Shown piece by piece: positions 1-64,000 of a DNA stretch of 64,000 nucleotides (the first letter of the stretch is position 1; the number at the start of each line of letters is the position of its first letter). Source of the stretch: Saccostrea cucullata. Its lineage: Eukaryota. Location: contig NW_026923439.1 in assembly GCF_032062105.1 (NCBI RefSeq), forward strand, positions 62,001-126,000, written 5' to 3'. The position numbers and the translations under genes were made by a program. Under the pieces are notes generated by a model. That model was not told where the DNA came from. It made no database searches and worked only from the letters and a program-made list of their open reading frames with translations.

Positions 1-26506
<26,506 letters not shown>

Positions 26507-30806: not shown

Positions 30807-32639
30807 CTGATGCACTTTCATTATAAAAATGCACCATAAGGTTTGCAACAGGCCTACTTTCTTACATCTTGTGCTACACATTTACATACATGTATTTGTA
30901 ACCATTACACTTCAAAAGCTGAATATTCAGAATTATCTGGAAGAGATGTCCATTGTTCTGAAATCACTAAAAAAATATCTTTGTTTTCTGTTATCACAGA
31001 TCTATTGTCTCAGTTGCTCGACTATATTTTATTAAAATATAAAGGAGGAGCATAATATTTTTCTTGCATTAATATATTATCTTGCATGTAGGAGGCAGAA
31101 ATATGCCACCATATATAAGCTATTTTAAAGATGAATAATACAATCTTTGTGAGATATGTAATTGTGAAAATTAAAATACATGTATTACCAGTATGTAAGA
31201 AGAAGGTACAGTTTTTAGCTTTATTGAGCCCTAAAAATGTTATGTCATCAAAAAGTTTTGAAACTGGCTTAAATATTAGTTAAGTTTATGACTGTGACAA
31301 ATCAGGAAAGAGTATGGCATGAGAGTTTACCATTCTGCATATATGACGTCATTAAATGTAATGCATTTCTCTGTTTTAAACAGAAAAAGCCTTAAAATAG
31401 CCCATTTCAAGGGTAATTTTCCTTTAGAAAATAGTGTCCATGCACAGTTAATTTTTTAGTATATGTTGTGCAAAAGTCAATAAAATATCACATATCTCAA
31501 AATCTTAGTGGGCGATGCCTGTGTACAATATTAACTGAAAGAAAATTCCATTGAAAATTGGTGTCTTCTGCAACTTTTTAAGAAAATACGGGAAAATGCA
31601 CATGTTTATGATGTCACAATCAGCATTTTACAACACTGTGAGGAAAATGAATTGTATGATTTTTCTGCATTGAATTTCAACTATTCAGGAAGCAAGAGTG
31701 TTCAACTTTTACACCAGTTTTATTTTTTATAAAATTACAGGGCAGAATTTGTATGGAAACCATTAGCCCCTTCACGGTAACTGCAGTGTACACTTTTGCA
31801 GGGCAAAATAATAACGTTTGGCGAAATTTTTGTTGACAGATAATTAAATGACGTATCTTTAACAATTACTTTTACGTCATATTTCATCAAACTATATCAT
31901 TTTGCCCTGCAAAAGAGAGTACCACAGTTACGATCTATACCTTGTTCTTCAAAAGAGGAGAATCAGCTGTGCTTTTTTTTTTCTTTAAATAACTGGTACC
32001 AGTAAATGGTACTATTCCCATAAAAAGCACTTTTGAACTGTAAAGCACCATTTTTTACTTTTTTAAAATTGGCATGTGCACCGAAGTGGCAGTGTCATCA
32101 GTGAATGATGGTGGCCGCAGTGTGGAAGAAGTAAAAGTAGAAGGTTAATTTTTCCCAGTTTTTTGACTAAAAATTCCCAATCAACTGCATGTTATTGACA
32201 GTGAAGTCTTTCTAACGTGTTACATTTTTGACAACTTAAAAGGGACTTTTATATTTCAAAAGAGACATATAAAATTATGTCTCTGATATTTTAAACAACA
32301 TTTTGAAATTCCGTCTTTAACTGCTTTCCCCTTAGGCCTATCACTGATGACATACTTTTGTATTGATGTTTTCAGCAAAGGTTTAAAAAATTCATTCCAT
32401 TTCAATTGTTAAGAGTTCTATTAAATTACTAGTAGCACTCATGACTGCACTTAGTGTTGAAGCTACTTCAGTCATGCTCTTATTACACCACCTATGCACC
32501 TCCCCCTTTTCGATTTTCTTTGCTTCGTAATTCTAAACTGTTTATTGGATAAAGTGCTAGGTTTTGTGTAAAGCTAGTCAAGATAAACACATGTACTGTA
32601 CCGAAGATTCTTTTTCACAAATTCTGGTGAAAAAAACTT

Positions 32640-32882
32640 AATTTCTTACATCTTTTCCCTGCACGTTGACAGACGATCACTTTCTTCAAACCGGAAGTGT
32701 GTTTGTTGTAGTTTTCAGCAGAGAAGATTTTGTTATTATTTTTTCAAGCTGAGTTAAGTACAGTGGAAAATAATAATTTTTTGCGTATTTGACACTGAAG
32801 TAAATAAATCGATTCTTCTTTTCTTTTTTTTAATGTATTTTTTTAAATAAAAATAATATCCCCGGTACTGACAAGATGGCGG
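32640..32882. promoter_or_regulatory. Left half of the presumed PLEKHH/THADA bidirectional promoter
   Basis: ETS motif CCGGAAGT at 32691-32698; YY1-type CAAGATGGCGG at 32872-32882 cut by the TIR element; candidate minus-strand donor (plus cttac) at 32645-32649. Confidence 0.5.
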
Positions 32883-33417
32883 TGTAACCGTGAAAACTGT
32901 CGCTAGTGCTCAGTGTCGCTCTTAATAGAATATATAGGGGAAAGAGCGACACTGAGCACTGGCTTCTGCGCATGCCTAGGGATTTCGGTCGCTTCAAATC
33001 GAAGCGGTGTCCCACTGAATTTAATTCCATGGTAATAGTATCCAAAGTCGTAGATTTTTATGTTTTCTTTGTTTATTTTAATCTTAAAAGAAGGCAAGAC
33101 AAATAAAATTTTAAAATTTTAGAACTTTTCATATTTTTTTTTTACCTCGTATAGAATTATTAAACGATCTTTTAAATTTCTATATTATAGAGAATAAACG
33201 GCTACACATTTAATCGCGGTAAATTGAACAGATACTTGTATTTAAAAAAAAAAGAAAAAACATGCCACAGTCCCTCAGTCATTTCTTAATAGGTGTGAAC
33301 CGCGCCGTGGGCGTTATCTCAGACAGGTGTCAAAAATTACCTGTTTGTTAATAACTAACAAACATAGCTCCCCATGGTCGATTGATAATTTGATACCAAT
33401 TAAAGGTGTGAACGGAG

Positions 33418-36400
33418 GTTTCAGTTTCAGTTTCTTTATTTCTTTAAGCCAACTGGCCCATCAGAGTTATACAACAAACATGATAATAACAAAAAGAAAA
33501 AACATACAGAGAGAGTGAACGTAAAGAACACATACATGGGAATAATTCTATACATCAATTTTATTTTTTTCTTAACATTGTTGCTTCGTTCAAAAATTTG
33601 CCCAAATTTACGAGATCTTTAATATTGTGAGAACTTAACAGCTGAATTAATTTAAAGACACTAGGCCTAGTATAATAATACTTTTTCAAAAATTTCTTTC
33701 TTATATCAATATACAATGGACATTTCAAAATAAAATGAAATTCATCTTCTATATCATGGAGATTACAACATGTACATAATCTGTTATTTTTAGGTACGTT
33801 ATGGTGTCGACCTGTTTCAATATTCAACGTGTGATTGGATAACCTGAATTTTGTTAATAGCTGTCTTAATTTTTTGTCAATAGGTTTTGTTAAATACCAT
33901 TGCAAACAGAAATTGTCAAATAAATGTTGATATAAATTACACTTTGAAGAGTTTGATATATTTTCTAATATAGCTTGCCTGGAAACATCTAACAGTCGTT
34001 GTTTTATAATGAGATAAGATCTATCATTTAAATTATCTTCTGTCCAAAGTTGACCTAGACCTAAGAGGGACAATTCTTTTTTAATTTGTAAAATCCATTT
34101 GTCATTATGTAATACCATGCTTTCATAACAGGACTTAAGAATGCAATTTTCAGTTGTTCTCAGTTTGATCCAATATTTGAAAATTCTTAATTTCATTGTA
34201 ACTGCTAATGGAAAACGCCCGAGCTCTGAATAAATCAAACTGTTTGAGGTTTTCTTCCCCACACCTAGAGTATTTTTACAGAAATTTAAATGTACCTTTT
34301 CTACGTCAGAACATCTATGAAAACCCCATATCTCAGTTCCATAAAGTAACACGCTACATACATATGTATCAAAAATTGAACATAGAGTTTCTACATTAAA
34401 TTCATACCTCTTTAATTTACTTGAAATAGCAAACATAGCTTTTCTTCCTTGTTCAGCAGCATGCTTCTGCGTTTTTAAAAATTTCCCATTAAAGTTAAAT
34501 AACATACCTAGATATTTAAATTCATTCACAATTTCTAATTCAGCATTATTATAGAACCAGGATTCGTTATTGCGTAATTTACCACCATTTCTAAAGACAA
34601 CAATCTTTGTTTTTGTTACATTAACAGAAAGGCTCCATTCTTCAGTATAATTGTACAGTGTGTTTAACATTTTTTGTAAGCCTTCTGGAGATTCAGCAAA
34701 AATAACCATGTCGTCTGCATACATAAGTATGAATAAATTTAACATCTGTAAATCAATATATGGACAGTTATCTGATATAAAACCAACCTCGAAATCATTT
34801 ACATATAATGAAAATAATATTGGTGATAATGTTTCCCCTTGCATTAAACCTATATCATTGTGGAAGTAATCACTGAGGAAACCATTGTATTTAACACAAC
34901 TTTTAACATTATTGTATAAGGATTTGATTATCTTTAACATTTTACCTTGGATGCCTAAATGAAATAATTTTTGCCATAATTTTATCCTATCAACAGAATC
35001 GAATGCTTTTCGAAAGTCAACAAAACAGCAATATAATCTTTTCTTTATAGAAAGGTACTTATTTATAAGCGATTGCAGAACAAAAATAGCATCAGTTGTT
35101 GACATTCCTTTACGAAACCCAAATTGTGCATCCGTCAATATATCATAGGAGTGCTCCCATTCCAGTATCCTATTGTTTAGAACACTTGTAAATAATTTAC
35201 CAAAACAGCTTACAATAGATATACCACGATAATTGTTAACATCATTCTTATCTCCTTTTTTAAACAATGGAGTAATATATGAAACATTTTGACCATGATT
35301 CAGGGTAAAAACCAGAGTTAAAAATATTATTAAAGAGTTTATGTAGCAGCGGGAGCAATTCGTCGCGGCATTTCATAAACAGTTCGTTAACAATACAATC
35401 TTCTCCACAACTTTTATTTGTTTTTAACTTTTTAATTGCTGTGCATATTTCTTCGTAACTAATCTCTGTATCCAACTCGTCGTATACAGCATCCGAATAG
35501 AATTCTTTTTTCAAGTTGTCGCCCGTGTTAGAACCGAGATTTTTAAAATGAGTGAAGAAATCTTCTAAATTTAAATTACAATCAACATGCTTTGTCTTTT
35601 TCGTTTTAAAAAGTTTAAAGAATTGTTTTGGGTTCTGTTTCTTCAAAAAAGTAAGCATATCGCCCTCATGGCGTTTGTACTGTCGTTTAAGTTTATTTTC
35701 AAATTTTTTGTAAGTTTGTTTAGCGTTTGAAAGAACCTCTCTATTTTCTGATGCTTTATTTACATTAAACACATTTAGTTTTTGTTTGTACTCATTATAA
35801 AGATGTTTACACTTATCGTTAAACCATGGTTTATCCTCATATTCTTTAAATATTTTTATTGTATTAATGCCTTGCTGTGGGTTAGATTCACGAACATCAC
35901 AGAAAGGGAGTACGCAAGTATTTAATAATTCACAGAAGCTATCAACACAAGAATTAACATTCTCGATAGAAGTAAACTCTACATCTACAATACTTTGAAG
36001 CTCGTGTATTTTATTGTTCAAACAATCTTTAACAAGGCAAGAATTTTCGTCCTTCCACTTAACTGACCTCGCATTCACTCTACCGTGACAATTGTTTACT
36101 ACGTGTTCGTTATTCTGAATGGTCGAATATCTCAATGAAACACTAAAGGAAACAGGTGAATGGTCAGAAAAAACTGTAAAATTACCTGATTTGAACTTAC
36201 TTATACTGGATAATTGAGTACTTTCAACCAATACGTAATCTATCAAACTAAAACCTCTTTTACTATAAAAAGTCAAATTACCTACTTCATCACCATTTAT
36301 TCTGCCATTAACTATTCGAAAGCCAGTAGATTTACAAAAATCTAAAAGTTTTCTACCCAAACCATTTACACATTTATCCATATTATTACGCTTTATCGGA

Positions 36401-37210
36401 ACATTATCTTCGACGTAATTATCTTTTAAAAAATCTGAATAAGAGCCGTCTCGTAGAAGTTTATCGTGTTTGATATAGTCATCTTGCTCCGCTGTTCTAG
36501 CATTAAAGTCTCCAAAAATATATACCTGACCTTCATTTTTAAATTCACTATACAATTCCTCTAGTAATTGAAAAAAATTAACATCAACCTTTTCATAAAA
36601 AGAACTATTTTCGGAAGGAATGTAACAAAAAAATAAAAATATTGGGGTTTCACATTCGACTTTTAAGCAAATTACACTATCAAACAAGTTTTTAACTAAT
36701 TTTATCCTTGAACATAAAAAACTTCTATAAAAAATTACAATTCCTCCACCTTTTATTTTTCTGGGAACAATGAAATGTTCGTAACCTACCAAATGAAATT
36801 CATCGTCTGGATTAATCCAGCATTCACAAAGACAGATAACGTCGTAACTAGTAATGAATGAAACAAATTCAAAATGAGACAGTTTTTCGGATAGAGATCT
36901 TGCTATATTCCAAGATAGTACTGAAATTTCACTGCGGTCACTCTCAACGCGTCCCTAAGCGTTGCCACTTGCAGTTGGGTCAGGTGGTTGCTCGTCAGTT
37001 CTGAATTCCATCTCCTCTGGGTGCTTCTCAGACTCGTCTGGGATATAAGGCTTGCCGTCTACAATAAGTTTGTCTCTAACGAGTTTCACGCGCTTACCTT
37101 CGGCACGAAGACGGTGCATAACCGGAAGTAGATGTCTCCTTCGCTCGCTCATATCAGCTGGTAATTGCTCCTGGATGCCGTAGGGCTTGTTTTTGAACCG
37201 AGAACTGAAA
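33418..37210 (-). mobile_element. 5'-truncated non-LTR retrotransposon (APE-RT; RTEX/Daphne-like) with an ORF1 C-terminal remnant
   Basis: ORF1 tail 36955-~37200 (ERRRHLLPVM...VKLVRDKLIVDG). ORF2 has an endonuclease (SWNI, VICLCECW, GDFNART, SLIDY, SDHSP), RT (FVDFRKAFDSV, GLMQGETLSP, YADD) and a C-terminal CxxC...EDEFHFILKC. The 3' end has AATAAA plus a (GAAACT)n tail at ~33418-33440. Confidence 0.9.
33561..36954 (-). pseudogene. LINE ORF2 (endonuclease/reverse transcriptase) broken by one frameshift at ~35276-35281
   Basis: ORFs 35260..36792 and 33561..35267 overlap at SKCFI/TPLFKKGD within an (AT)n run. The frame is open upstream to the ORF1 stop at 36955-36957. Confidence 0.85.
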
Positions 37211-37321
37211 TCTAGTAACGAACCTTAAATATCTGTAATTTATCAAAATATAAGTTGAAAATGTATATAAGTTCTATCAACCAGTTTTTATTTAACAGAT
37301 AAATAACGAGAAACACGCATA

Positions 37322-40300
37322 ATTATGAAGAATGAGTATCAGTGAAAAGTGTGGCTCTTCAAAATGGCAGTTTCCTATTTTCTCACACCTGACTTATATA
37401 TCGTCTGTAAAACAGGTATACAGTAAAATTTCAAGCCGGTTTCAGTTGATATAGATGATTTAAGTATAATTTAATAATTCTAGAAGATAAAATTGTCGAA
37501 AATAATTATTTTGAAATAGTTATGAGCATCAGTGCTGAGTGTCGCTCTCCAAAATGGCAGTTTCCTATTTTCTCACACCTGACTTATATATCGTCTGTAA
37601 AACAGGTATACAGTAAAACTTCAAGCCGGTTTCAGTTGATATAGATGATTTAAGTATAATTTAATAATTCTAGAAGATAAAATTGTCGAAAATAATTATT
37701 TTGAAATAGTTATGAGCATCAGTGCTGAGTGTCGCTCTTCAAAATGGCAGTTTCCTATTTTCTCACACCTGACTTATATATCGTCTGTAAAACAGGTATA
37801 CAGTAAAACTTCAAGCCGGTTTCAGTTGATATAGATGATTTAAGTATAATTTAATAATTCTAGAAGATAAAATTGTCGAAAATAATTATTTTGAAATAGT
37901 TATGAGCATCAGTGCTGAGTGTCGCTCTTCAAAATGACAGTTTCCTATTTTCTCACACCTGACTTATATATCGTCTGTAAAACAGGTATACAGTAAAATT
38001 TCAAGCCGGTTTCAGTTGATATAGATGATTTAAGTATAATTTAATAATTCTACAAGAAAACATTGTCGAAAATAATTATTTTGATATAGTTATGAGCATC
38101 AGTGCTGAGTGTCGCTCTTCAAAATGACAGTTTCCTATTTTCTCACACCTGACTTATATATCGTCTGTAAAACAGGTATACAGTAAAACTTCAAGCCGGT
38201 TTCAGTTGATATAGATGATTTAAGTATAATTTAATAATTCTAGAAGATAAAATTGTCGAAAATAATTATTTTGAAATAGTTATGAGCATCAGTGCTGAGT
38301 GTCGCTCTCCAAAATGGCAGTTTCCTATTTTCTCACACCTGACTTATATATCGTCTGTAAAACAGGTATACAGTAAAATTTCAAGCCGGTTTCAGTTGAT
38401 ATAGATGATTTAAGTATAATTTAATAATTCTAGAAGAAAAAATTGTCGAAAATAATTATTTTGAAATAGTTATGAGCATCAGTGCTGAGTGTCGCTCTTC
38501 AAAATGGCAGTTTCCTATTTTCTCACACCTGACTTATATATCGTCTGTAAAACAGGTATACAGTAAAACTTCAAGCCGGTTTCAGTTGATATAGATGATT
38601 TAAGTATAATTTAATAATTCTAGAAGATAAAATTGTCGAAAATAATTATTTTGAAATAGTTATGAGCATCAGTGCTGAGTGTCGCTCTTCAAAATGGCAG
38701 TTTCCTATTTTCTCACACCTGACTTATATATCGTCTGTAAAACAGGTATACAGTAAAACTTCAAGCCGGTTTCAGTTGATATAGATGATTTAAGTATAAT
38801 TTAATAATTCTAGAAGATAAAATTGTCGAAAATAATTATTTTGAAATAGTTATGAGCATCAGTGCTGAGTGTCGCTCTTCAAAATGGCAGTTTCCTATTT
38901 TCTCACACCTGACTTATATATCGTCTGTAAAACAGGTATACAGTAAAACTTCAAGCCGGTTTCAGTTGATATAGATGATTTAAGTATAATTTAATAATTC
39001 TAGAAGATAAAATTGTCGAAAATAATTATTTTGAAATAGTTATGAGCATCAGTGCTGAGTGTCGCTCTCCAAAATGGCAGTTTCCTATTTTCTCACACCT
39101 GACTTATATATCGTCTGTAAAACAGGTATACAGTAAAATTTCAAGCCGGTTTCAGTTGATATAGATGATTTAAGTATAATTTAATAATTCTAGAAGAAAA
39201 AATTGTCGAAAATAATTATTTTGAAATAGTTATGAGCATCAGTGCTGAGTGTCGCTCTTCAAAATGGCAGTTTCCTATTTTCTCACACCTGACTTATATA
39301 TCGTCTGTAAAACAGGTATACAGTAAAACTTCAAGCCGGTTTCAGTTGATATAGATGATTTAAGTATAATTTAATAATTCTAGAAGATAAAATTGTCGAA
39401 AATAATTATTTTGAAATAGTTATGAGCATCAGTGCTGAGTGTCGCTCTTCAAAATGGCAGTTTCCTATTTTCTCACACCTGACTTATATATCGTCTGTAA
39501 AACAGGTATACAGTAAAATTTCAAGCCGGTTTCAGTTGATATAGATGAATTAAGTATAATTTAATAATTCTAGAAGATAAAATTGTCGAAAATAATTATT
39601 TTGAAATAGTTATGAGCATCAGTGCTGAGTGTCGCTCTTCAAAATGACAGTTTCCTATTTTCTCACACCTGACTTATATATCGTCTGTAAAACAGGTATA
39701 CAGTAAAACTTCAAGCCGGTTTCAGTTGATATAGATGATTTAAGTATAATTTAATAATTCTAGAAGATAAAATTGTCGAAAATAATTATTTTGAAATAGT
39801 TATGAGCATCAGTGCTGAGTGTCGCTCTCCAAAATGGCAGTTTCCTATTTTCTCACACCTGACTTATATATCGTCTGTAAAACAGGTATACAGTAAAATT
39901 TCAAGCCGGTTTCAGTTGATATAGATGATTTAAGTATAATTTAATAATTCTAGAAGAAAAAATTGTCGAAAATAATTATTTTGAAATAGTTATGAGCATC
40001 AGTGCTGAGTGTCGCTCTTCAAAATGGCAGTTTCCTATTTTCTCACACCTGACTTATATATCGTCTGTAAAACAGGTATACAGTAAAACTTCAAGCCGGT
40101 TTCAGTTGATATAGATGATTTAAGTATAATTTAATAATTCTAGAAGATAAAATTGTCGAAAATAATTATTTTGAAATAGTTATGAGCATCAGTGCTGAGT
40201 GTCGCTCTTCAAAATGGCAGTTTCCTATTTTCTCACACCTGACTTATATATCGTCTGTAAAACAGGTATACAGTAAAATTTCAAGCCAGTCTTACTTGAT

Positions 40301-40420
40301 ATACATCGTTTAGGTATAAGTCAATAATTCTAGAGGAAAAAATCGTAGGAAATAATTATTCTGAATTAGTTATGAGCATCAGGGATAAGTGTCGCTCTTC
40401 AAAATGGCAGTTTCATATTT
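37322..40420. repeat. 190-bp tandem repeat (satellite), about 16 near-identical units
   Basis: agtgctgagtgtcgctct recurs at 37531, 37721, 37911 ... 40191 (190-bp period), with degenerate edge units at 37341 and 40381. Confidence 0.97.
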
Positions 40421-40894
40421 AGGGGAATTTCAGACTTTGCACACCGGCGTTATAATACACAAAATAATTCAGCTGATCATCTTGATAAATTACATTTCCC
40501 AAGCTTTCTTGGAAGGACAGATATATTCCTTATCAACAGATTTGAGGCCCAGTTTAGTAAATCTGCACAATTTTTTATGCAAATCTGCAAATTAGGGAAC
40601 TTGTAATTTTTCTGCACTACTTTCTTCTCCTACCGATTCTAAAAATAATTAGTGGGATGTACTAAGTACACAACATACTGGTATTGTTAGGCATGTGAAT
40701 TATTGATACTTGTATTATATAATTTAATGTCATATCATTTCATACTCGGTATTCTTCCCGTTTCATTTATTGAGTTGCATTCCTGATATATATCTTACTA
40801 TATTGATATCGGTTATTTTTATTGAATATGGTATAAATTTAATACCTTGTAAAAGGAACGGTGTATCGTCTGCAGCGTGTTGTAGGATTTTTAT

Positions 40895-43375
40895 TCTCTG
40901 ATTTGAACATATTTTATTGATTATACTTTACAAATGGGATTGGGCAAAAGTTCTAAAAACTTATTACGCCCTCTCCCTACATATGCATTGTGTCAAACAT
41001 ATTTACATACATGGGTTTCAGCTTAAAATGAAATAACAATAATAATAATATAATAATAATATATAATAATCAGAGTAAAACACATTCAGTAGAATACATT
41101 TCATATGTCATAGACATGCTGTATAAGATTTACAATTAGAAATAATTATTGTATCAACCAAATCGTCCTGACTTTTTAATAAAAGTTTGTACAATAGAAA
41201 ATAGGTATTCATTTTCAAAATCATTTAACGATTTGTCTCCCCAGAGTAAAGTGTGAGTATCGACAGTGTGTAATTTACCCATTCGCAAAAATTTGTCAAA
41301 AAATTCTTTCCTGGCTTCTGTATATTTTTTGCATGAGAAGAAATAATGATGAGTATCCTCCACTCTTCCACAAGAACATAGTGGACTCAAGATTACATTA
41401 CATCGAAAAAGATCGCTATTAAGCACACAGTTATGTCTGAGCCTCGTGTGTATTATATTTAAGCGTCGATTTCCATAACTGAAGTAAGAGGGTGGCATTT
41501 GTTTATCGAAAGAAATAGACTTTTTAAAAATAGATAACGAGGGAGAATTTCTTACATTAAGAGGTAATGAGTTCCATTCTTCAATAACAAGGGGAACGAA
41601 AGTTGATTTGTAAGCTTGCAATCTGCATTTGGGTATGTTATAGTTCTGCGAGTTTCTCGTACTGTAACTTGATGAATTACATCGTAAGTTAGGGATTATA
41701 TCTGCGAGATATTCAGGAACTTGGTTTTTATCAATTTTATACATTGTAGTTAGTCTGGTCTTTTTCCTTCTTTCATGTAATGGTTCCCATCCAGTTTCAA
41801 TGTAAAGTGCATCTTTAGAAGCTAACAGAGTTAATCCTGTGACAATTCTAGCAGCACATAATTGTAATTTTTCTAATTTTTCGCTGTCACCTATATTACA
41901 TCCACCCCACACCAAGGAAGCGTATTCTAACTGTGGTCTAATGAAGGTTGTGTACATGAGTGAAAGAGTTTTTCGGTTGACAACAAATTTAAGTTTTTTT
42001 AACAAGCCCAATTTTTTATATGCATTGGCTAGAATAGTATCAATATGTGTAGACCAACTAAGATCTTGCGAGAAAAAAATTCCTAAATGTTTATGAAAAG
42101 AAACAAATTCTAGCTGACTTTGCTGGAAGAAAAGTTTAGGATAAATAACACTTTTTTTCAGGCTAAAAAATATTGCTTTAGTTTTAGTAGGATTGAATTT
42201 AAGAAGCCATTTTTTCGACCAGATTTCTAGCTTGTTAAGATCAGAATTCAGTTTGTTTTCAATAGTATTAACATTTTTAGATGACTGTTGTAGGGAGTTA
42301 TCGTCTGCAAATAATCTACAAAAACTTGTCATTTCTTCAGCAACATCATTAACATATATAAGAAATAATAAAGGTCCTAACACTGAGCCTTGAGGGACAC
42401 CGGCGTGTATAGGTTTTTCGTCAGATAGCAAGTTTCTGTATAAAACTCTTTGTGATCTACCTTCTATGTAACTCTTTAACCAATGAAACATATTTCCCTC
42501 TATACCATAAGTTCTAAGTTTGAACAAGAGACCCTTGTGCCACACACGATCAAATGCTTTAGAAAGATCACAGAATATCATACAACAATTTTCACCATCA
42601 TCGATGGCTTTAACAATAGTATCATATGTTTCTATTAGTTGATATACAGTGGAATGACCTGGTAAAAATCCAGCCTGGTATTTATAAAAAAGATTGTTGT
42701 CACGAAAGTGATTATACAAGTATTTGAATATGATTCGTTCCATTATTTTACCAATACAACTTAACAGTGACACAGGTCTATAATTAGACATAACAGATGG
42801 ATCATCTTTTTTAAATAAAGGGAGAACATTGGCAACTTTCCATTTGCAAGGAAAAATACAATCAACTAATGACCTATTAAACAATAAACATAATGGTTTT
42901 ACAATAGTATATATGGTAGATTTCAACATCTTGTGACTAATATTATCTGGACCTATTGCTTTGTTAACAGGAATAATTGAAATAATATCTATAATCTCTT
43001 GTTCATCAATACAGACTGTATCAAATAGGTTATTGCACACAGAATATAAATTAGGTAAAATAGCGTCGTTTTCGTCAATACAAGAGATAGAAGCAAAATA
43101 ATCATTTAAAACATCTATTTTCTCTTCATTTGTAAAAGCCACACGTGCGTCACCATTAACAGAGGTATACTGTAGAGGAGGAATATCGGTAGTAGATTTT
43201 ACTTTAAATATATCTCTCAATAACTTCCAGTAAAGTTTGGAATTATTTTTACTTGCGTCTGTAATATGATGCTCTATGTTATTATGATAATTTTCAATGG
43301 CGATTTTTTTCATATTGTTAAACTTATTCCTGCATTTCTTATATTTTTCCCAGTCAGAATTTTTTATTCTCTAAG
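40895..43375 (-). mobile_element. 5'-truncated CR1-type LINE
   Basis: 719-aa ORF 41154..43313 with RT motifs (NYRPVSLLS, DLSKAFDRVWH, GVPQGSVLGPLLFLIYVND, LFADD, IRPQLEYAS). The 3' UTR ends in aataaaatatgttcaaatc (plus-strand gatttgaacatattttatt at ~40900-40918). The endonuclease is missing because of truncation. Confidence 0.9.
41154..43313 (-). CDS. CR1-like reverse transcriptase ORF (uninterrupted, N-terminally truncated)
   Basis: ORF track 719 aa with a complete RT core and a C-terminal Cys/His motif (CSCGRVEDTHHYFFSC). Confidence 0.8.
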   Translation of the reverse strand: MKKIAIENYHNNIEHHITDASKNNSKLYWKLLRDIFKVKSTTDIPPLQYTSVNGDARVAFTNEEKIDVLNDYFASISCIDENDAILPNLYSVCNNLFDTVCIDEQEIIDIISIIPVNKAIGPDNISHKMLKSTIYTIVKPLCLLFNRSLVDCIFPCKWKVANVLPLFKKDDPSVMSNYRPVSLLSCIGKIMERIIFKYLYNHFRDNNLFYKYQAGFLPGHSTVYQLIETYDTIVKAIDDGENCCMIFCDLSKAFDRVWHKGLLFKLRTYGIEGNMFHWLKSYIEGRSQRVLYRNLLSDEKPIHAGVPQGSVLGPLLFLIYVNDVAEEMTSFCRLFADDNSLQQSSKNVNTIENKLNSDLNKLEIWSKKWLLKFNPTKTKAIFFSLKKSVIYPKLFFQQSQLEFVSFHKHLGIFFSQDLSWSTHIDTILANAYKKLGLLKKLKFVVNRKTLSLMYTTFIRPQLEYASLVWGGCNIGDSEKLEKLQLCAARIVTGLTLLASKDALYIETGWEPLHERRKKTRLTTMYKIDKNQVPEYLADIIPNLRCNSSSYSTRNSQNYNIPKCRLQAYKSTFVPLVIEEWNSLPLNVRNSPSLSIFKKSISFDKQMPPSYFSYGNRRLNIIHTRLRHNCVLNSDLFRCNVILSPLCSCGRVEDTHHYFFSCKKYTEARKEFFDKFLRMGKLHTVDTHTLLWGDKSLNDFENEYLFSIVQTFIKKSGRFG

Positions 43376-43689
43376 CACGAGTTCTTTAGTAAAGCCTATT
43401 AATTCTGGCGAATTGTGAATCTTTTTCGACATTGTTTCCACTATAAATAAAAGGAGCAGTGTTGAGACTGGACACCCTTGTGTCATTTTGCATTTCTGCC
43501 CATCTGTTACACTTTCTTTCGAACTTGTGCTGACATTTTACATAGCAATTCCCTATACATGTACGGCCTGAAGATTATTTTTAGATAGATATGATGCATT
43601 CCAGTAAAATGCGTTATTTTTATTTTGAATCTGTGTTCCTCTAAAAATTGACGCTTTCCAAATATGCTGCATCTGAATCTTGCACACTA

Positions 43690-44480
43690 GTAGCATAAGA
43701 AGAAAAATGGGCTACCGGTAAAGCAGGTGTACCCCAGTCTTCAATTGCAAGAGGTTTTAATGTTACGCACAGCACCATATGTTACGCACAGCATTTATAA
43801 AATATAAAAATGCAACACCAAATTAAATGTTCGCAAAAATACGAGATACCACGTGTAATATCAGCAGCAAAGAATCACTTCAGAGAATTACTAGTACGTA
43901 AAAGTGAATGTAAACAGTGACATCATCTACAGCATGAATTATCCCTAAACTGCAAAGATCATCTAGCAATACCCTTTTCAACTGACTAAGACTTATTGCA
44001 AAAGGATTACCCATGCCAGTGTTCTGGTCCCACAGCACTCCATGCAAATATCTACTTCAAAGATCTCAGATCAATGGAGTATGACCAAAGCATCACCATT
44101 GAACATTTTGGTGTAGCTAGTCCAGAATGTTTATCAGAGAGCCTGTTATTGAAGTGCTAGGGTTTCGTAATGAACATTAGACAGAAAACTGCCTCCAGGA
44201 CGTTAAAAAAGGTGGTGGTGGTAGTTTAGTGGAATGAAAAACGGTATTACACAAGAGTAAGACTGATTTGGTTCGTATTTAAAGGTCTTTGATGGTAAAA
44301 GGTACTCTAACTATGTTCTACCTGAACACGCCTATTCAATTTTGCAATGACAACCTCATTCTTGCAAAACAACAGAAACCTGATTCTGCAATTGTCACCT
44401 CGAGAGTTAAGCCTAACTAAGCAGCATTAGACAAAAGGGATTGACATGATCCATTTGCCAAAGACAATCACATCCCTAGA
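43690..44480 (+). pseudogene. Heavily decayed Tc1-type transposase
   Basis: Fragmentary peptides: AGVPQSSIARGFNVTHSTI (N-terminal HTH, ~43722-43780), IPRVISAAKNH (~43845-43880) and NCLQDVKKGGGGSL (the GGGSVMVW motif, ~44188-44230), with many stops and frameshifts. Confidence 0.6.
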
Positions 44481-44554
44481 CCCTGCAACAGCTGACTAAA
44501 GCTCTACATTTGGAGTGGGAGAGTATTCCTATAGAGTTTTTATAACACACATTA

Positions 44555-46800
44555 CCCTTTGACTGTAGATTTCAACTTGCCTGTGAACTACCCCCTGACT
44601 GCAGACTCCATTTTGACTATAAAGAACCCCCCTGACTATGAACTTTGACCTTGACTATGAACTATCCCTTGACTGTGAACTACCCCCTGACCGTGAACTT
44701 CCCCCTGACTGTAGACTCCACCTTGACTATGAACAACCCCAAACTGGAGACGCCACCTTAACTATGAAGTATCCCCAAATGTAGACTCCACCTTGACTGT
44801 GAACTACCCCTGACTGTGAACTACCCCCCTGACTGTACAATCCAACTTGACTATAAACAACTCCAACCTGTAGACTCGATTGTGAACTATTCCTTTACTA
44901 TGAACTACCCACTGACTGTAGTTTCCACATTGACTATGAATCACCCCTTGACTGAGACTCCACCTTAATTATGAAGTATCCTCAAACTGTAGACTCCAAT
45001 TTGACTGTGAACTACCCACTGACTGTAGACTCCACCTTGATTGTGAACTACCCCTTGACTGTGAACTACCCACTGATTGTAGACTCTACCTTGACTATGA
45101 ACTAACCCTTTACTGTAGACTCCACCTTAACTATGAAGTGCAGTAAAACTCGATTAGTACGAACACGGAGATTGCGAATTCACAGATACAGCAAAGTTAT
45201 CTTGGATCCCCAGCTATATAAATTTAACGAATTCCTTATACAGATATAACGAATTACGGATATAATGAAGTTATTTCATAGGTCCCAGTGTCTTCGCTAT
45301 AACCGAGTTTAACTGTATCCCCAAACTGTAGACTCCAATTTGACTGTGAAATACCCCCTGACTACACACTCCACCTTGACTATGAACAACCCCCTGACTG
45401 TAGTCTCCACCTTCACTATGAACAACCCCATGACTGCAGACTCCACCTTGACTGTGAAATAACACCTGACTGTAGACTCCATCTTGAGTGTGAAGTTTTT
45501 ATTACACACAGTGCCCTCTGACTGTAGATTTCAACTTGACTGTGAACTACCCCCTGACTGTAAACTCCACATTAACTGTGAACAACCCCCTGACTGTAGA
45601 CTCCATCTTGACTGTGAAGTTTTTATTATATACAGTGCCCTCTGACTGTAGATTTAAACTTGACTGTGAACTACCCACTGACTGTACACTCCACCTTGAC
45701 TATGAACTACCCCTGACTGTAGACTCCACCTTGATTATGAACTTTCCCTGACTGTAGACTCCATAGACGCCACCTTGACTATGAGCTACCCCTTGAACCT
45801 TGACTGTACACTCCACCTTGACTATGAACTACCCCTGACTGTACACTCCAAACTGTAGACTTCCTTAATTGTGAACTATCCCTTGACTATGAACTACCCT
45901 TTGAACCTTTACTGTAAATTCCACCTTTATTGTGAACTACCCGCTGACTGTAGACTCCACCTTGACTATGAACTACCCCTTGAACCTTGACTGTAGACTC
46001 CACCTTGACTATGAACTACCCCATGAACCTTGACTGTAGACTCCACCTTGATTATGAACTTTCCCTGACTGTAGACTCCATAGACGCCACCTTGACTATG
46101 AGCTTCCCCTTGAACCTTGACTGTACACTATGAACTACCCCTGACTGTACACTCCAAACTGTAGACTTCCTTAATTGTGAACTATCCCTTGACTATGAAC
46201 TACCCTTTGACTATAGACTCCACCTTGACTATGAACTACCCCTGACTGTACACTCCAAACTGTAGAATTCCTTAATTGTGAACTATCCCTTGACTATGAA
46301 CTACCTTTGACTATAGACTCCACCTTGACTATGAACTACCCCTGACCATAGACTCCACCTTGACTATGAACTACCCTTTGTACCTTTACTGTAAATTCCA
46401 CCTTTATTGTGAACTACCCACTGACTGTAGACTCCACCTTGACTATGAACTACCCCTGACTGTACACTCCAAACTGTAGACTTCCTTAATTGTGAACTAT
46501 TCCTTGACTATGAACTTCCCTTTGACTATAGACTCCACCTTGACTATGAACTACCCCTTGAACCTTGACTGTAGACTCCACCTTGACTATGAACTTCCCC
46601 TGACTGTAGACACCACCTTGACTATGAACTACCCTTTGAACCTTTACTGTAAATTCCACCTTTATTGTGAACTACCCGCTGACTGTAGACTCCACCTTGA
46701 CTATGAACTACCCCTTGAACCTTGACTGTAGACTCCACCTTGACTATGAACTACCCCATGAACCTTGACTGTAGACTCCACCTTGACTATGAACTACCCT
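44555..46800. repeat. Complex minisatellite (~35-43 bp units built on tgactgtagactccaccttgactatgaactacccc)
   Basis: Dozens of imperfect copies are visible; interrupted at ~45140-45316. Confidence 0.92.
45140..45316. mobile_element. TA-type MITE (cagtaaaactcg...cgagtttaactg) inserted in the minisatellite
   Basis: Short inverted termini; it interrupts the unit motif gaagTAtcccc. A relative is present at ~55888-55982. Confidence 0.65.
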
Positions 46801-47697
46801 ATTGCAACACAAGACCTCAATGCATGCTGTTTCATCCAAAGGAGCAGTCTCCACGTCCAACAGTGGGATTTGAAACCACAACATAAGAACCAACCCCTTA
46901 CTTGGCAACTCTAGAAAATTTCTAACCACTGCACCATGCATGCGACAGCACAGCAATTTAGAAGATCCATAAACTGACTCAAAAAAACTTAAATTGTTGC
47001 CCAAAAGCAAGAAAATGGTATCACTAGGACCATCAAAATAATTGGTCTAGTATCTGTCTATTTATCATAATTATCATGAAACTATTAACAATAAAATATA
47101 CTTTACATGCATTTCATACTCTATACTATACCTCTCATACAGGCCTATCTTGGCCTTTGAAGAACATTAAAAAAGGTATTTTTTGCTCATTTTTAATCAT
47201 CTATTATTTACAAGTCTACCTATCATTAAATCAATGAAAGTTCTATTTGTGTAATAAAAAAGTGTTCTTGTGCAGTTCTCTTATTCTATAAACCTTTCAA
47301 ATACATGTATATTATTGTCCCTGCCATTGCAAAAGTGGGGGGGGGGACAATATAAATCTCATCCGTCTGTACTTCTGTCAATCTGTAGTTCTGTCCATCA
47401 CAAAAACTTTAAATTTGGTCATAATAGTAAGATTCTCAGCCAACCTTGGTCTTTCAGTCAGGTGATGTAACCTAATTAGCGTCTGAAACTTACACAGCTT
47501 TTCATTCATGGCTGAAATATAGATTTCGGCAAACATCAACAAGTTTAGAGATAATACAATGAAAGTTTGTTGTACGGCAAGTGGTGGGGCTTAGTCACAT
47601 TTGGTGATGTGCCATATACCCTGGAACTAAAAGTGAGAGCCTGCCAGGGATGATCCTGGGTTGGGGTCTTTAAACCAAGACCTTTAAGAACCTTAAT

Positions 47698-47825
47698 GTG
47701 GCAGTCAGCCCAGTTAGATCGCCAGTGACCGGATAGATCAGTTGGTTATTTGAGACCTGACCAGAGATTCAGGGGGCCACGGTTTGAATCTCAGTCTGGT
47801 CAGCATTGTTTTTCTCCTCTCCCAT
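47698..47825 (+). repeat. tRNA-derived repeat (SINE-like), decayed copy
   Basis: Similar to 58168-58295, including the upstream gtggcagtcagcc...gatcgccagtg and the B-box region. Confidence 0.55.
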
Positions 47826-50814
47826 AAAAGGAAAAGATCCGAAGGGGACATCAGATCATTAGAGTGAAATTACTCCTACTCTCAGCATAGCTCTATCATG
47901 TCTATTAACAATACTCATTTTCTTATACTTATATTGTCTTCACTTTTTTATAGAATAATGTTTAGCAAAAAGTATAATAAATGTTAGTACAGTAAGAAAA
48001 AATGTATGTTAAGAGAAATTTTATTTGATCAAGCCGTTCAATTGAATTTCAGGTTAAAATGTAATTTCTTGAATATCTTAAACAATTGTCAATCTGTCAT
48101 TAAACACTTACAACATGTGTACAAACTAATGAATTATTTGGATTTTATAGTAATTTTTAAATGGATTTCAAATTTAATTTAAAGTGTAAAAAATAGATAG
48201 GTCAATTTTTCCCCAAATTCATTTTCTCTGATACTTTGATCTTTTGCTCTAAGATACAAAATCTCTTCTTTATATGATATGAAAGAAATTCGATCACACA
48301 TTTTTGTCCACATAGTTTGAAATATGGTCTGTAAGAAAGTTGTGAAATCAGACATTCAACGTTTTTCAACATTATCAATTAATTTATTGAAAACTTGCAT
48401 GATGCTGTTTATAAAGACAATATTTTTGTTACTGGTACTTGAATTCAATAAGTTTAGTTATAATGATACTGGTAAATTTGAATATTAAGATATTATGTAA
48501 AAATAGAGCATACATATAAGTGTCAGAATTGAAAATAATTCACAAGTAACTATGCTACACATAAAGTTATCTCATGAGAAATTGTATAATTCAATTTTTA
48601 CAAAAAAAAAATCAACAGAATGATTCCAATGGGTCCCAAAATTGTGTCAGATTAAGGAAAATTGAACTGATAGTGTTAGATATTTCATCACAATATTTTA
48701 TCTTTAATACTTTTTATCTTTAACCTCTTGATATGACATTGACCTTTACGGTACATTAAACATCTCGTAATATATGTGTCCAAATATCAGCCCTCTACTA
48801 TATATGGAACATAAGTTACACTGCATTTCGTAACAGACTTACAGTCTGTACTGCATTTAAACAGCATTAAGCCATTCTAAAATGTAAGCTACCAAGTGAC
48901 CGATACATGTATATAGAATTCTCTGATTTTTTTCCCCACAAAATATGTCAATTTTTGCTTAAGTAGCGCATAAAATATCTACCAAACTAAGCGATTTTGT
49001 CGTCAAATACTGGGCAAGTTCTTTTATAGTTGTCTTACTGGTAGCTTGTCTAGCATTGTAGTGCATATGCAAGATGTTTTTTTTTTCACTTTACTATCTG
49101 GTTTCATCTCTTTGTATGATATATAATTTTATATTGTGTGTGGACTCTAGACTCAGATCATGCTGATAGATGTTTGAAGTTATAAATCTAAGTTTATCAT
49201 CACTGTAATGAAAATGAACTGTCTATCCCAACATTAACAATATTTCAGTGACATTGCATCTTACTGAACGGTGTGTCGATTTACCCAAATGGAGCCAAAG
49301 ATGACTCAAATGGACTTCTGTAGACTTTATATCAAAAATAAAATGCATCTACAGTGTATATATATATAAAAATAATTATTTATTTTTGCATTTAGATATT
49401 TATATTGTTGAATATTCAGAATAATGGCTATTGAAATAAATGTGTTTTGTGTTTATGACAAACATTCAAATTATTGTATTAAAAAAAAAAAATTATTCAT
49501 TACAATTAAGTAAATTATTTTAAAATATATGAGTTTACCAATCAGAAAATTTCACAAAGTTATATTCTTTTTTAGTAAATCAGTACGTAGCAACAGGGGG
49601 CCGGGGGCTTGCTCCACCTCTATTTTCCAGACATAACTTTTAGTTTTACTGTATTAAAAATGTTCATTGAAAGCCCCCCTCCACCACACACACTTTCAAA
49701 AAAAAGATGCTACATCACTATAAATGATATTACTATTTTATCATAATTAAGTCCCTTTGCTTAAATCGACGCAATTTACTGAATGTCACCTATCATGGAT
49801 CATCATTGAACATATACACTGTATAAATGAATCAATGTGAACAGAACTCATCTAACCAAAAACTATATGATGAAAAATGATTGAAAACTGCTCAGTTTTT
49901 AATTTATGACAGAGAATGTTAACACCTAAACATTCATAGGGAAAATCCACATTAGTCTTTGTGTACAAGAAAAAAAAAAAACTTTTCAGCATTATAGACA
50001 CATTAAAACCACAATAAATAGAGGAAATTCGCGTCGCAACTTTATACTGGTTGCAAGTGGCGAGACCATAATTTAACCTTACTTGTGTCTAACATTACAT
50101 TTATCGGCAAAACAAACGATAATTATTTTTATTTTATCTTGTTAAAATACTGTCTTACTTACAATAGATCGGTTTTGATTGCGAGTTTACTAATCATAAT
50201 ATTGTTCTCTCGAGTGCAAACAGCTGATTAAGTTGGATGCCGATCTCGATGTTTAAAAACATTAAACAGTTTATAGTACACTTCTGCTGTCGCTTTCTTT
50301 TCCCAAATAGTTTTTTTTTTCAGTCAATTAATAAATATCTAATTAAATTAGTCATATATTGCACTTCTTCTTATGTAATTTTAGAGATGAAGTATCACAT
50401 GAAAGCCCAGATCAGATGCCGATCGCGATGCAATAGCGTCGAATGTCAAACACTTATTTTTCAAGATTTTGCTGAAAATATTCAAAAAACCAGAATTCTT
50501 TAACAGTCTTGGAACTTTATTACTTCGATTTTACTTCATTTTAAACACTAATTGCGTCTATATAAGGCGATTACAACTTTCTCGGGGTCTAATTATACGA
50601 GTGTCGAATTGCACGGCTACCGCTTTTTTCAGAGCGACACTGAGCACTAGCGACAGTTTTCACTGGTACAGCGGCCCACATGAGTGAAAATGCTGCTGTC
50701 AGACTACATTTGCCATTTGGTGGAAAACATCGCTGAATCGGTCAACATGATACTTACCAAAAGAGAATACCACAAGCAACTTTCTTAATAAACATTTTAG
50801 GCTATTTGTTGAAA

Positions 50815-53800
50815 ATGTCGGCACTAGAGAAAAAGGAATATCTGGATTGTCTTGATCTGGTCAGAGATAATCTGTTGCAAGATGTATACAAAGTCAAAGG
50901 TAATTTAGTCTCCCCATCTTCAATTTGTTCGTTGCTTTTGTTCTTACGGCTTTTTCACTTATATTGTGAAGCCATCAGCCGCTTGTAGAGGGCAGCATTT
51001 TTTACTGGTGCTCAACAGTTTATTCAAACCCATGATGTAAAGGATCATTCCTTAAAAACAGTACTTAGCTAAAACACTCTGTGTCTGTGGACAAGCTCTC
51101 ACCACCACAGATAAAGGTTGAGTACATCCCTTATAGTTCTAATGCAGCCCCCTTCAAAATGATTTTGAAGAATATGAAAGGAGTTGTACTGAAAATAATC
51201 TCAGTGAGATGTCGTAGGGACTAAAATATTTGGTCGGACGTCCACTACGACATGGACGTCCGACCAAATATTTTAGTCCCTACGACATCTCGCTGAGATT
51301 ATACTGAAAATAACTCAAATTTATAACAAACCAAACAATATGTTTTTCAATGTGACTGTTGGGGTGAGCTCAGCTGTATCAAAAATCATAGTCGACACAC
51401 TGATCAGCCACTTCAAAGAAAAGTCGCACAAGACATCTCGACTAGCTGTGAGCATAGATTTCGTCGGAGCTTACAGAGACAGTTGAGCGTGTAGTTTGAA
51501 ACTATACAGACATAGTGCAATTTTTGACAAAAGTCATTGCAGAGTATTTTTTTGTTTGTTTTACATTGAAAGATTTATTTATGACCCTCTTTCTTCTTTT
51601 GTTTTGCATACAAGACTTCCAATTCGAATTGCTTCCGTTTGTCATCGCCTGCTTTCAATAAAAGATTTTGGTCCCATTTGAAATACAGTATAATTGAAAT
51701 TGTCACATTATCTAAAAAAAACTATTAATTATAAAAGAAAGAATTTCAGTAGTATTCTGTCCATAACAAAAAATATTTTGCCCGCTTTATTTCCGAATTT
51801 TACGGTCAACATTTGACCTACAGAAGAAAAACCAATAGGGGCCTAACTTTGTTTTATTATGTCGTAGGAAATAGGTAATACATTCAAGTAACATCCTGTA
51901 TATTTTGGTAGGTATACACAACCTAGCGTTGTTCCCTCTGGGCTTCTCACCCGCTTCAATTAAGCTCCACCCCACAGCAAACTTACCTGAGGACTGTTTG
52001 AAAACCTCGGTCTTTAATAGTGCTGGGCAAAAAATATCGATATTTCAGTATATTGCAATACAATCACAAAAAATATTGTATTTCAATACGTTTTTGTAAT
52101 ACCAAAATGTTTTGACTCAGGAATTCTATCATTAAAAATATTAAGAAAAGTTGTCAGAAAGTTTTTTTTTGTTTAAGCAAAACATTAAGACAGTTCTAAT
52201 CTGTTGCATGGGTGTATTTCAGTATATATGTGTAATTAAGGCAACTTGATTCTTTTCCCCTTTGGTTACTTATTTAGGTATGTACATTCTACGGTAAATT
52301 GAAGTTAATATGAGAAAATGCCATTTTAATTATGTTGAAAATATTGCAATACACATCGCAATACAGTTATAAATATCACAATATATCGCAATACAAAATC
52401 TCTGGCCAATACCCAGCCTAGTCTTTAAGTATTTTACCATCAATATCTCCAATCTTCGGGTATCTCAATTTTTTTCTCAGCCCATTGAGTTTGAGATAAC
52501 AAGGATTGACTGTATTTGAAAATAAAAAAAAATTTTGCAAAATCTTCCTGCTCAGTTTTACATTATGATGATGATTTTAGTCCTGATCCATTGGAATACT
52601 GCCCGAAACAATGAACTATATATTAGTTTCTTCAGCACTAATATTTGCAGGGAGGTGGACAGGTATAGCTTATATCCATGCCTCTGGATGTAGTCTATAT
52701 CGGTTTACTTTTCTGAAGGGAAAACTTGTAGTCCAGACTGTCGGTGCAAACTGAAAACTTTAAAACAGTCTAAAAATGACCTTTTAGTAATTATCATTGT
52801 AGATATAATTTTACTCATGGAAACACTTAAAAACATAACATTTATTTCAGACGAAAATGTTCCAGAGGAAGAAAATTTATTAAACAAAGAGTTTCAAAAG
52901 TTATTTGAATCAAAAGACATAAAACAACAAATTGTTATTCTTAAGGAGGTAAGATTTTATTTGAATTTATAGTAACATGATATTAGGTAATAATAACTAT
53001 CTTTTATCTGAGACAATAAGATTTGAAGAAATTGACAGGGTATATACATATTTATACATATATCTACTGGCTGTATTTGAAATCTGAAGGAATGCTCTTG
53101 GAGAGATTAACAGTGTGTCTGCACCCTATCATAACAAATCTAATTTAATTTTATCAAATAGAATTAAAATAAAATACCAAGGTGAAAAAAACCCACAACT
53201 CTATGTACTACTACTATAGGTTTTTATTATGAAATGAGATTATGCCTATACAATTTATGTATAATCACTTTAATTAAATTAACATTCCAGCTATGCAAAG
53301 AAACCCAGGAATGTTTTCTGGGAGAAGGCATAGGGTCAAAGATACTTTCATCTGTCACAATCTTAGTCAACATCTACCTGAATTGTCCTCCTAAACACAC
53401 AGCAAAAAGGCTGTTGGCAAGGTACACAAATATCTTGGAACTATGATTTAACAGTGTATATTATGATTGAAATTGTAAACAAATCCAATTTAGCTGATAC
53501 TTAGCTATCCTGGTAAGATTTTTCCTGTTTTATTCCAAGAGAGCATATTGGAGTTCTTTTGATTCCTTATATATGTATTGCATGTACAGTTTAATTGTAG
53601 TACATTCCAGAATTTTAACAATGAATTCAAAACCTTACTGTGTGAACGGATGAAAGAAGAAGTCCTAATGAAGATAACTGGTGAGGTGGGAGATCTCCTA
53701 GCTGCTCGACAAAATGTGAACATGATATACTGTCTCATGGAAAACTTTACATTAGGTGTGTACTCAAAAAGGGGATGCAAGTTTTTGATATGTCATATAT

Positions 53801-63897: not shown

Positions 63898-64000
63898 GTA
63901 GAATTTACTGCAGCAAGTCTCTCCTACCTCATATTTCAGACCATGTCTATAATGATGGACCAATATACAACTAATTTACTGAAGATCATTGTGTAGCCTT

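What the first reader, a model, noticed from the sequence alone, without database searches (positions are those of the whole stretch)
32860..50820. The insertion splits a YY1-type motif at the heart of a bidirectional promoter
Seen: excising the element plus one TSD gives ACAAGATGGCGGCCCACATGAGT, a full AAGATGGCGGC motif. It also shrinks the distance from the candidate PLEKHH first-exon donor (32650) to the THADA ATG (50815) from 18,165 bp to 373 bp. An ETS CCGGAAGT sits at 32691. The rebuilt ATG GCG GCC CAC ATG (MAAHM) is in frame with the THADA ATG, separated by a single TGA. Known: YY1 motifs lie just downstream of housekeeping TSSs, often over the start codon. Inference: the element hit, and may target, this motif, separating THADA from its promoter or altering its 5' end.
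Basis: partly seen in the sequence, partly recalled or inferred. Interest (0 to 1): 0.75.

Follow-up and report, generated by a model that had tools for sequence, protein, structure and literature searches.

The report
Transposon splits oyster shared promoter
In a rock oyster, a 17.8-kb jumping element with no detected transposase gene sits inside a YY1-type promoter motif between two back-to-back genes; related copies mostly sit next to the same kind of four-letter word but were not seen at that motif, so the hit is likely a by-product of a short sequence preference rather than YY1 targeting.

Summary
The element spans 32883-50670 (17,788 bp), with TGT...ACA ends, 40-bp inverted repeats (38/40) and a GCGG duplication that cuts the AAGATGGCGGC motif. 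Removing it gives 373 bp instead of 18,165. PLEKHH (ATG 26506) and THADA (ATG 50815) are head-to-head. The element holds two LINE remnants and two tandem arrays, and no transposase was detected. It looks like a non-autonomous Ginger1-type transposon. Its ends are abundant repeats in two relatives, one of which lacks it here. Targeting test: 6 of 7 visible flank groups adjoin GCGG/CCGC/CCGG (chance 0.001 each), but 0 of 3 with visible upstream context show the YY1 letters. Two of the three such words in the rebuilt promoter are YY1 or ETS motif cores, so a motif hit is a likely by-product. MAAHM is a 22-codon upstream frame, not a lost N-terminus. One RNA fragment suggests the THADA start site lies at or left of the insertion. 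Start sites are unmapped and the effect on expression is untested. The scan noted a similar promoter split by another superfamily in this genome (e1-9526816).

The parts
2..26506 (-). PLEKHH-type gene (PH, MyTH4), coding part; ATG at 26506; acceptor at 26582 implies a non-coding first exon upstream
32450..32882 (.). left half of the rebuilt promoter region, CpG o/e 0.85 against 0.22 in PLEKHH intron 1
32645..32650 (-). candidate PLEKHH first-exon donor (last exon base 32650); predicted, not seen in RNA
32691..32698 (+). ETS-type CCGGAAGT (motif name recalled); its core is a CCGG word
32872..32882 (+). left part of the YY1-type motif (consensus recalled), ending in the left copy of the duplication GCGG at 32879-32882
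32883..50670 (.). 17,788-bp TGT...ACA element, Ginger1-like, no transposase detected
32883..32922 (+). left terminal inverted repeat, 40 bp, begins TGTAA
32902..32963 (.). left-end hairpin: inner part of the terminal repeat repeated in reverse (fold z = -7.3); the same left end is present in both relatives
33418..37224 (-). nested non-LTR retrotransposon (endonuclease ORF 35263-36954, RT ORF 33564-35372); ends set by eye, no duplication found
37332..40420 (+). 190-bp tandem array, 16.3 copies, 97% matches; units carry an 18-19-bp match to the inner terminal repeat, followed in 14 places by CAAAATGGC
41032..43370 (-). second nested non-LTR retrotransposon (RT ORF 41157-43370, AAT tail)
44553..46799 (+). 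degenerate 18/36-bp tandem array
50000..50670 (+). CpG-rich right end (o/e 1.45) with a TATA-like word at 50559 facing THADA and a strong predicted acceptor at 50324
50631..50670 (-). right terminal inverted repeat, 38/40 identical to the left; both differing letters also occur among copies in relatives
50671..50674 (+). right copy of the 4-bp target duplication GCGG
50675..50814 (+). THADA 5' UTR; TGA at 50734-50736 closes the MAAHM frame; transcribed in organism A from at least 50698
50815..64000 (+). THADA (TRM732) gene, ATG 50815; 24 exon blocks align to P0001 at 75-98%; runs off the window

Best explanation
A 17.8-kb element with TGT...ACA ends and a 4-bp GCGG duplication sits in the YY1-type motif between the head-to-head PLEKHH and THADA genes of a rock oyster, and it was likely pasted there by a Ginger1-type integrase made elsewhere, which likely reads only a short GCGG/CCGG word and likely favours CpG-rich, unmethylated promoter DNA. 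Shown: ends, duplication, cargo, gene layout, an abundant family in two relatives, an element-free site in one of them, and GCGG/CCGC/CCGG next to 6 of 7 flank groups. Inferred: the enzyme (none found); the promoter bias (these words are 5 times denser in the rebuilt promoter, and 2 of its 3 are cores of the YY1 and ETS motifs, so a promoter hit often breaks a motif); later swelling by two LINEs and two arrays. Consequence (inferred from one RNA fragment): the THADA start site lies at or left of the break and is now 17.8 kb from its reading frame. This allele is then either weakened or rescued, by splicing out the element or by the outward TATA-like word in the CpG-rich right end. PLEKHH keeps its ETS site and candidate first exon on the left.
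For: Anatomy. Ginger1 has TGTNR ends, 40-270-bp repeats and 4-bp CCGG (75%) or CCGT/ACGG (24%) duplications (PMC2836005, passages). Ginger1 is named among Repbase matches for C. gigas (PMC8268682, table passage). No transposase domain in 53 ORFs of 45 aa or more (of 77 listed) or in 102 ORFs of 24-44 aa. Family and flanks: where 6 of 7 flank groups begin with GCGG, CCGC or CCGG against a host frequency of 0.00104. Organism B contig 16 aligns at 50708-50955 and its 252 upstream letters do not match the element end. Word density: 3 in 576 bp (5.2/kb) against 1.04/kb in host DNA, Poisson P = 0.023. CpG o/e is 0.85 in the promoter against 0.22 and 0.28 in the gene bodies; oyster methylation falls on gene bodies and spares promoters (PMC4378273, passages).
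Against: GCGG is not among the published Ginger1 duplications, and the right end reads TGTAC, not TGTNR. No autonomous partner could be sought (no genome held). One flank group begins CCTG. All 7 flank groups come from organism A (3 samples, 2 studies), 4 of them from RNA only, and 20 of 41 loose-end rows were hidden. GCGG in four groups is inferred from alignments running through 50674 at 80% likeness, so CCGG or ACGG cannot be excluded there. The only other GCGG site with visible upstream letters also has TG before it (chance 0.064), which hints at a longer word. Promoter bias of the family was not measured. The start-site inference rests on 1-2 reads.
Confidence: 0.6

Rival explanations
1. 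The family picks GCGG/CCGG words anywhere, with no promoter bias, and the YY1 hit is a one-off noticed after the fact.
For: The seven flanks are mostly AT-rich and share no motif beyond the 4-bp word. Many promoter motifs contain CGG, so several hits would have looked notable. An unrelated superfamily was noted splitting another shared promoter in this genome (e1-9526816, not checked).
Against: Only 3 of 48 such words in 46 kb of host DNA lie in the promoter, and the chance that AAGATG precedes a random GCGG is 3.7e-4.
Confidence: 0.25
2. The family targets the YY1 motif itself, by reading a longer ATGGCGG-like word or by being tethered to bound YY1.
For: Exact motif at the break (3.7e-4 by chance). 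One other site reads TG before GCGG. The internal 190-bp array carries the YY1-like word CAAAATGGC 14 times.
Against: 0 of 3 flank groups with visible upstream context show AANATG, and 1 of 4 has C after GCGG. Bound YY1 would be expected to cover this word (inference). No paper on YY1-targeted transposons came up.
Confidence: 0.08
3. The 17.8 kb did not arrive or grow as one element. Two separate ends bracket captured or rearranged host DNA, or the stretch is an assembly or haplotype artefact.
For: The interior 43371-49999 is CpG-poor (o/e 0.17-0.47), like a methylated gene body. No run of this species was found (best share 0.10), so the junctions were not seen in independent reads.
Against: A perfect GCGG duplication on both sides rejoins one motif and one continuous UTR. 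The left and right ends are the two distinct ends of one family in relatives. No host protein domain was found inside.
Confidence: 0.05

Closest known systems
Ginger1 DNA transposons (Bao, Kapitonov, Jurka 2010; PMC2836005, passages read)
   Same: TGT...ACA ends, inverted repeats of about 40 bp, 4-bp GC-rich duplication ending in CGG; non-autonomous copies are known; present in oysters (PMC8268682 table; PMC10294476 counts 98 Ginger elements in its mollusc set)
   Different: Duplication mostly GCGG/CCGC rather than CCGG or CCGT/ACGG; right end TGTAC; 17.8 kb against 2.6-7 kb; no integrase; hairpin left end and an internal array that echoes the terminal repeat
Ginger2/TDD (PMC2836005, passages)
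   Same: TGTNR ends, 4-bp duplication, 50-180-bp repeats
   Different: Ginger2 prefers AT-rich RTATAY targets; this family adjoins GC-rich words in 6 of 7 groups
GingerRoot/IS3EU and IS481EU (PMC6839031, PMC10045372, passages)
   Same: Integrase-related; GingerRoot has GC-rich targets and carries gene fragments; IS481EU has TGT...ACA ends and sometimes 4-bp duplications
   Different: GingerRoot/IS3EU have 6-bp duplications and mostly TA...TA ends; IS481EU is reported from parabasalids
Chromatin-guided insertion of DNA transposons such as piggyBac (PMC5333637, abstract and outline only)
   Same: A short fixed target word combined with a bias to active chromatin
   Different: Here the word is itself the core of promoter motifs; the bias was not measured
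YY1 motifs in ubiquitous and bidirectional promoters (amphioxus, PMC6292497; human, PMC8384218; passages)
   Same: Head-to-head housekeeping pair with a YY1-type motif on the downstream side of one start site
   Different: No CAGE or binding data for oyster; the motif is 147 nt upstream of the true ATG, not over it

Membership tests
Ginger1 | 5'-TGTNR termini | tested here: inconclusive
   Left TGTAA fits; right TGTAC has C at position 5; both types occur among copies
Ginger1 | Terminal inverted repeats of about 40-270 bp | tested here: met
   40 bp, 38/40
Ginger1 | 4-bp target duplication | tested here: met
   GCGG on both sides
Ginger1 | Duplication CCGG or CCGT/ACGG | tested here: not met
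   GCGG here; among 7 flank groups 4 GCGG (inferred from the alignments), 1 CCGC, 1 CCGG, 1 CCTG
Ginger1 | Gypsy-like integrase with YPYY, H2C2, DDE, GPY/F | not testable with these tools
   No such domain in 155 ORFs scanned inside the element; an autonomous partner could not be sought without a genome
Ginger2/TDD | AT-rich RTATAY target | tested here: not met
   GC-rich word in 6 of 7 groups
GingerRoot/IS3EU | 6-bp duplication, TA...TA ends | tested here: not met
   4-bp duplication, TG...CA ends
YY1-motif-targeted element | AANATG before GCGG in independent insertions | tested here: not met
   0 of 3 groups with visible upstream context; small sample, from a relative
Bidirectional promoter | Head-to-head genes with first exons under 1 kb apart | tested here: inconclusive
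   Head-to-head shown; 373 bp rests on a predicted donor
Bidirectional promoter | Two divergent start sites mapped by CAGE or 5' reads | not testable with these tools
   No start pile-up; 1-2 reads on the THADA UTR; left side not covered
YY1 site overlapping a start codon | Motif ATG is the gene's start codon | tested here: not met
   TGA after 22 codons kept in organisms A and B, two more stops in B; orthologues start at 50815

The most novel reading that the evidence does not exclude
This integrase-type family is steered to the motif cores of housekeeping promoters (YY1, ETS, E2F) beyond what its 4-bp word and CpG density predict, through a longer TGGCGG-like word or tethering to a promoter factor. 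It would act as a natural promoter-splitting mutagen that keeps the downstream gene alive with its own outward TATA or splice sites.
Probability: 0.1. Interest if true: 0.65.

Novelty: new variant of a known kind. Interest (0 to 1): 0.3.

Why it matters
The point that survives testing is modest but testable. Ginger1-type target words (CCGG, GCGG) are the cores of the ETS and YY1 motifs of housekeeping promoters, so in AT-rich, gene-body-methylated genomes such elements should break promoter motifs more often than other transposons. I found no paper making this link (held open-access library only, Repbase not searchable). The locus is also a natural test of how an essential-type gene copes with 17.8 kb between start site and reading frame. 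True motif targeting would be a new kind of target choice, but the flanks seen do not show it.

Tried and rejected
No whole genome is held, so copies could not be counted in this species. Metagenome scan with a terminal-repeat pattern: 62 of 62 hits are chance matches in GC-rich DNA (49-66% GC, likely bacterial), with only 3-8 of the next 20 letters matching. Viral and prokaryote genome scans: 0 hits. Sequencing runs: none holds more than 0.10 of the words, so all read evidence is from relatives. The left junction was not covered by reads, which leaves the PLEKHH first exon and both start sites open. Search for a spliced transposase or captured gene in the element: the exon scan and Pfam on 155 ORFs found only the two LINE proteins; 24 of the 77 longer ORFs, mostly opposite-strand or overlapping frames over the LINEs, were not scanned. 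Rfam over 31000-52000: 0 matches. Duplications around the two LINEs: none convincing. Earlier findings by sequence or 'Ginger' in this genome: nothing. MAAHM as a coding extension: rejected. Organism A as proof of an empty site: rejected, because its contigs start at 50676 only through a variant at 50706. Summed contig depth was not used as copy number. PMC6389100 holds no YY1 passage. Paper supplements (e.g. Ginger1 sequences) were not opened and may bear on family assignment.

Full report
Observation. All sequence facts check out. The element runs 32883-50670 (17,788 bp). It starts TGTAA and ends GTACA, with 40-bp terminal inverted repeats at 38/40 (my notebook entry of 41 bp was a miscount). 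GCGG flanks both ends. Removing the element and one GCGG rebuilds AAGATGGCGGC (YY1 consensus recalled; the matrix is named in PMC8384218, passages) and shortens 32650-50815 from 18,165 to 373 bp. CCGGAAGT lies at 32691. The rebuilt ATG is in frame with ATG 50815, with one TGA after 22 codons. AAGATG would precede a random GCGG with probability 3.7e-4, so the motif at the break needs an explanation.

Genes. Pfam finds PH and MyTH4 on the minus strand and Trm732/THADA domains on the plus strand (145 ORFs). The nearest THADA is from Saccostrea echinata (83%); its residue 1 aligns to ATG 50815 and 24 exon blocks follow. PLEKHH orthologues P0004 and P0010 start at ATG 26506, 76 nt below an acceptor at 26582, so a non-coding first exon must lie upstream. 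It was not seen in RNA. CpG o/e is 0.22 in PLEKHH intron 1, 0.85 at 32450-32882 and 0.28 in the THADA body. That is the pattern expected where gene bodies are methylated and promoters are not (PMC4378273, passages). A shared promoter is therefore likely, but it is inferred.

The element. It holds two non-LTR retrotransposon remnants (RT and endonuclease hits), a 190-bp array of 16.3 copies and an 18/36-bp array. No transposase or host domain was found in 53 of 77 ORFs of 45 aa or more, or in 102 ORFs of 24-44 aa from the non-LINE parts. The ends, repeat length and 4-bp CGG-ending duplication match Ginger1, which uses CCGG (75%) or CCGT/ACGG (24%) (PMC2836005, passages). The duplication letters and the fifth base of the right end differ, and no integrase is available, so I call it Ginger1-like and do not file it as a member.

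Relatives. No genome is held and no run of this species was found (best share 0.10). I laid 50362-51175 on four runs of two relatives. The element's right end is an abundant repeat in both, and loose ends reproduce the window's left-end sequence exactly in all four runs, so both ends belong to one family. In organism B, contig 16 aligns at 50708-50955 and its 252 upstream letters do not match the element end, so the orthologous site lacks it; only the nearest 30 letters are shown, so the motif itself could not be read there. Organism A gives no evidence either way.

Targeting test. Of 41 loose-end rows, 21 were shown. Eight of them, forming 7 groups and all from organism A, give letters next to a terminus. 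Four groups run through GCGG, one begins CCGC, one left end follows CCGG (my reading: a short derivative), and one begins CCTG. That is 6 of 7 against a host frequency of 0.00104. The YY1 letters lie upstream of the word and are visible in 3 groups: none has AANATG, and one has TG. After GCGG, 1 of 4 groups has the C of the motif. So the 4-bp word is the family's target, and motif targeting is not supported. The limits are a small sample, 4 groups from RNA only, mixed consensus in two contig groups, and GCGG inferred from alignments at 80% likeness.

Why the motif was hit. GCGG/CCGC/CCGG words occur 48 times in 46,208 bp of host DNA (1.04/kb) but 3 times in the 576-bp rebuilt promoter (5.2/kb, P = 0.023). 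Two of those three are the cores of the ETS and YY1 motifs. An element that needs this word and favours open, unmethylated DNA will therefore often break a motif once it lands in such a promoter. The promoter bias itself is inferred, not measured. Chromatin-guided insertion is known for other DNA transposons (PMC5333637, abstract only), and YY1 motifs were profiled at ubiquitous promoters in amphioxus, where 25% of neighbouring genes are in bidirectional promoters (PMC6292497, passages).

MAAHM. The TGA is unchanged in the listed differences of organisms A and B. B has two further in-frame stops (using the 14 listed B differences in this stretch; 5 of the contig's 25 were hidden) and gaps that shift the frame upstream of 50708. 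Orthologues start at 50815. MAAHM is one of four upstream ATG frames from the motif onward, not a lost N-terminus.

Effect on THADA. In run X17 one or two reads cover 50698-50893. Bin depths put the first read's end at 50822, hence its start at about 50673 if it is 150 nt long. The second stops at the exon 1 donor. Run X18 has no read there. This suggests a start site at or left of the insertion point, so in this allele the start site is probably 17.8 kb from the reading frame, with 19 AATAAA words in between. Possible rescues, all predicted only: splicing from weak-to-moderate donors near the left end to acceptors at 50324 (11.4 bits), 50633 (3.6) or 50801 (6.9), or the TATA-like word at 50559 in the CpG-rich right end. 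The allele may also be heterozygous and simply harmful. The left half still reads AAGATGGCGG and may still bind YY1.

Novelty and verdict. Searches found no paper linking Ginger1 targets to promoter motifs or describing YY1-targeted elements; Repbase and most subscription papers are not covered, and supplements were not opened. Verdict: a real, clean insertion of a Ginger1-like non-autonomous element with a variant target word. The motif hit is most likely a by-product (0.6), then chance (0.25), then motif targeting (0.08), then a composite or artefact (0.05). Interest 0.3.

Noticed in passing
window 37332-40420: Units of the 190-bp array carry an 18-19-bp match to the inner terminal repeat, directly followed in 14 places by the YY1-like word CAAAATGGC (0.65 expected by chance): an array of possible transposase or YY1 sites inside the element.
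   Followed up: partly
window 43371-49999 and 50000-50670: The element's interior is CpG-poor (o/e 0.17-0.47) while both ends are CpG-rich (1.29, 1.45), like a promoter plus methylated gene body; no exon with a known domain was found.
   Followed up: partly
window 50362-50481 (X1 record 1): The element end differs at 0 of 120 letters from the abundant contig of organism A, while the host UTR differs at 4-5 of 117; this fits recent family activity, horizontal transfer or a consensus effect.
   Followed up: no
loose ends behind 50670 and 50674 in X17: Two flank groups contain CGGTTACA right after the terminus, which mimics the element's own end: insertion into or beside terminus-like DNA, or duplicated ends.
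   Followed up: no
X18 loose end behind 50674: One flank reads GCGGGAAA, an E2F-type word (recalled), in 3 reads.
   Followed up: no
window 50894-50899: Six extra letters at the end of THADA exon 1 relative to organism A give a choice of two donors (50893 or 50899) and possibly two extra residues.
   Followed up: no
window 10976-11604: A 45-bp tandem array of 14 copies begins at the end of a PLEKHH coding exon and repeats its last codons and donor.
   Followed up: no
window 47697-47825 and 58170-58295: Two 78%-alike short interspersed repeats, SINE-like, one inside the element and one in a THADA intron.
   Followed up: no
window 51181-51316: A 64-bp inverted repeat with an 8-nt loop in THADA intron 1, probably a small foldback element.
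   Followed up: no
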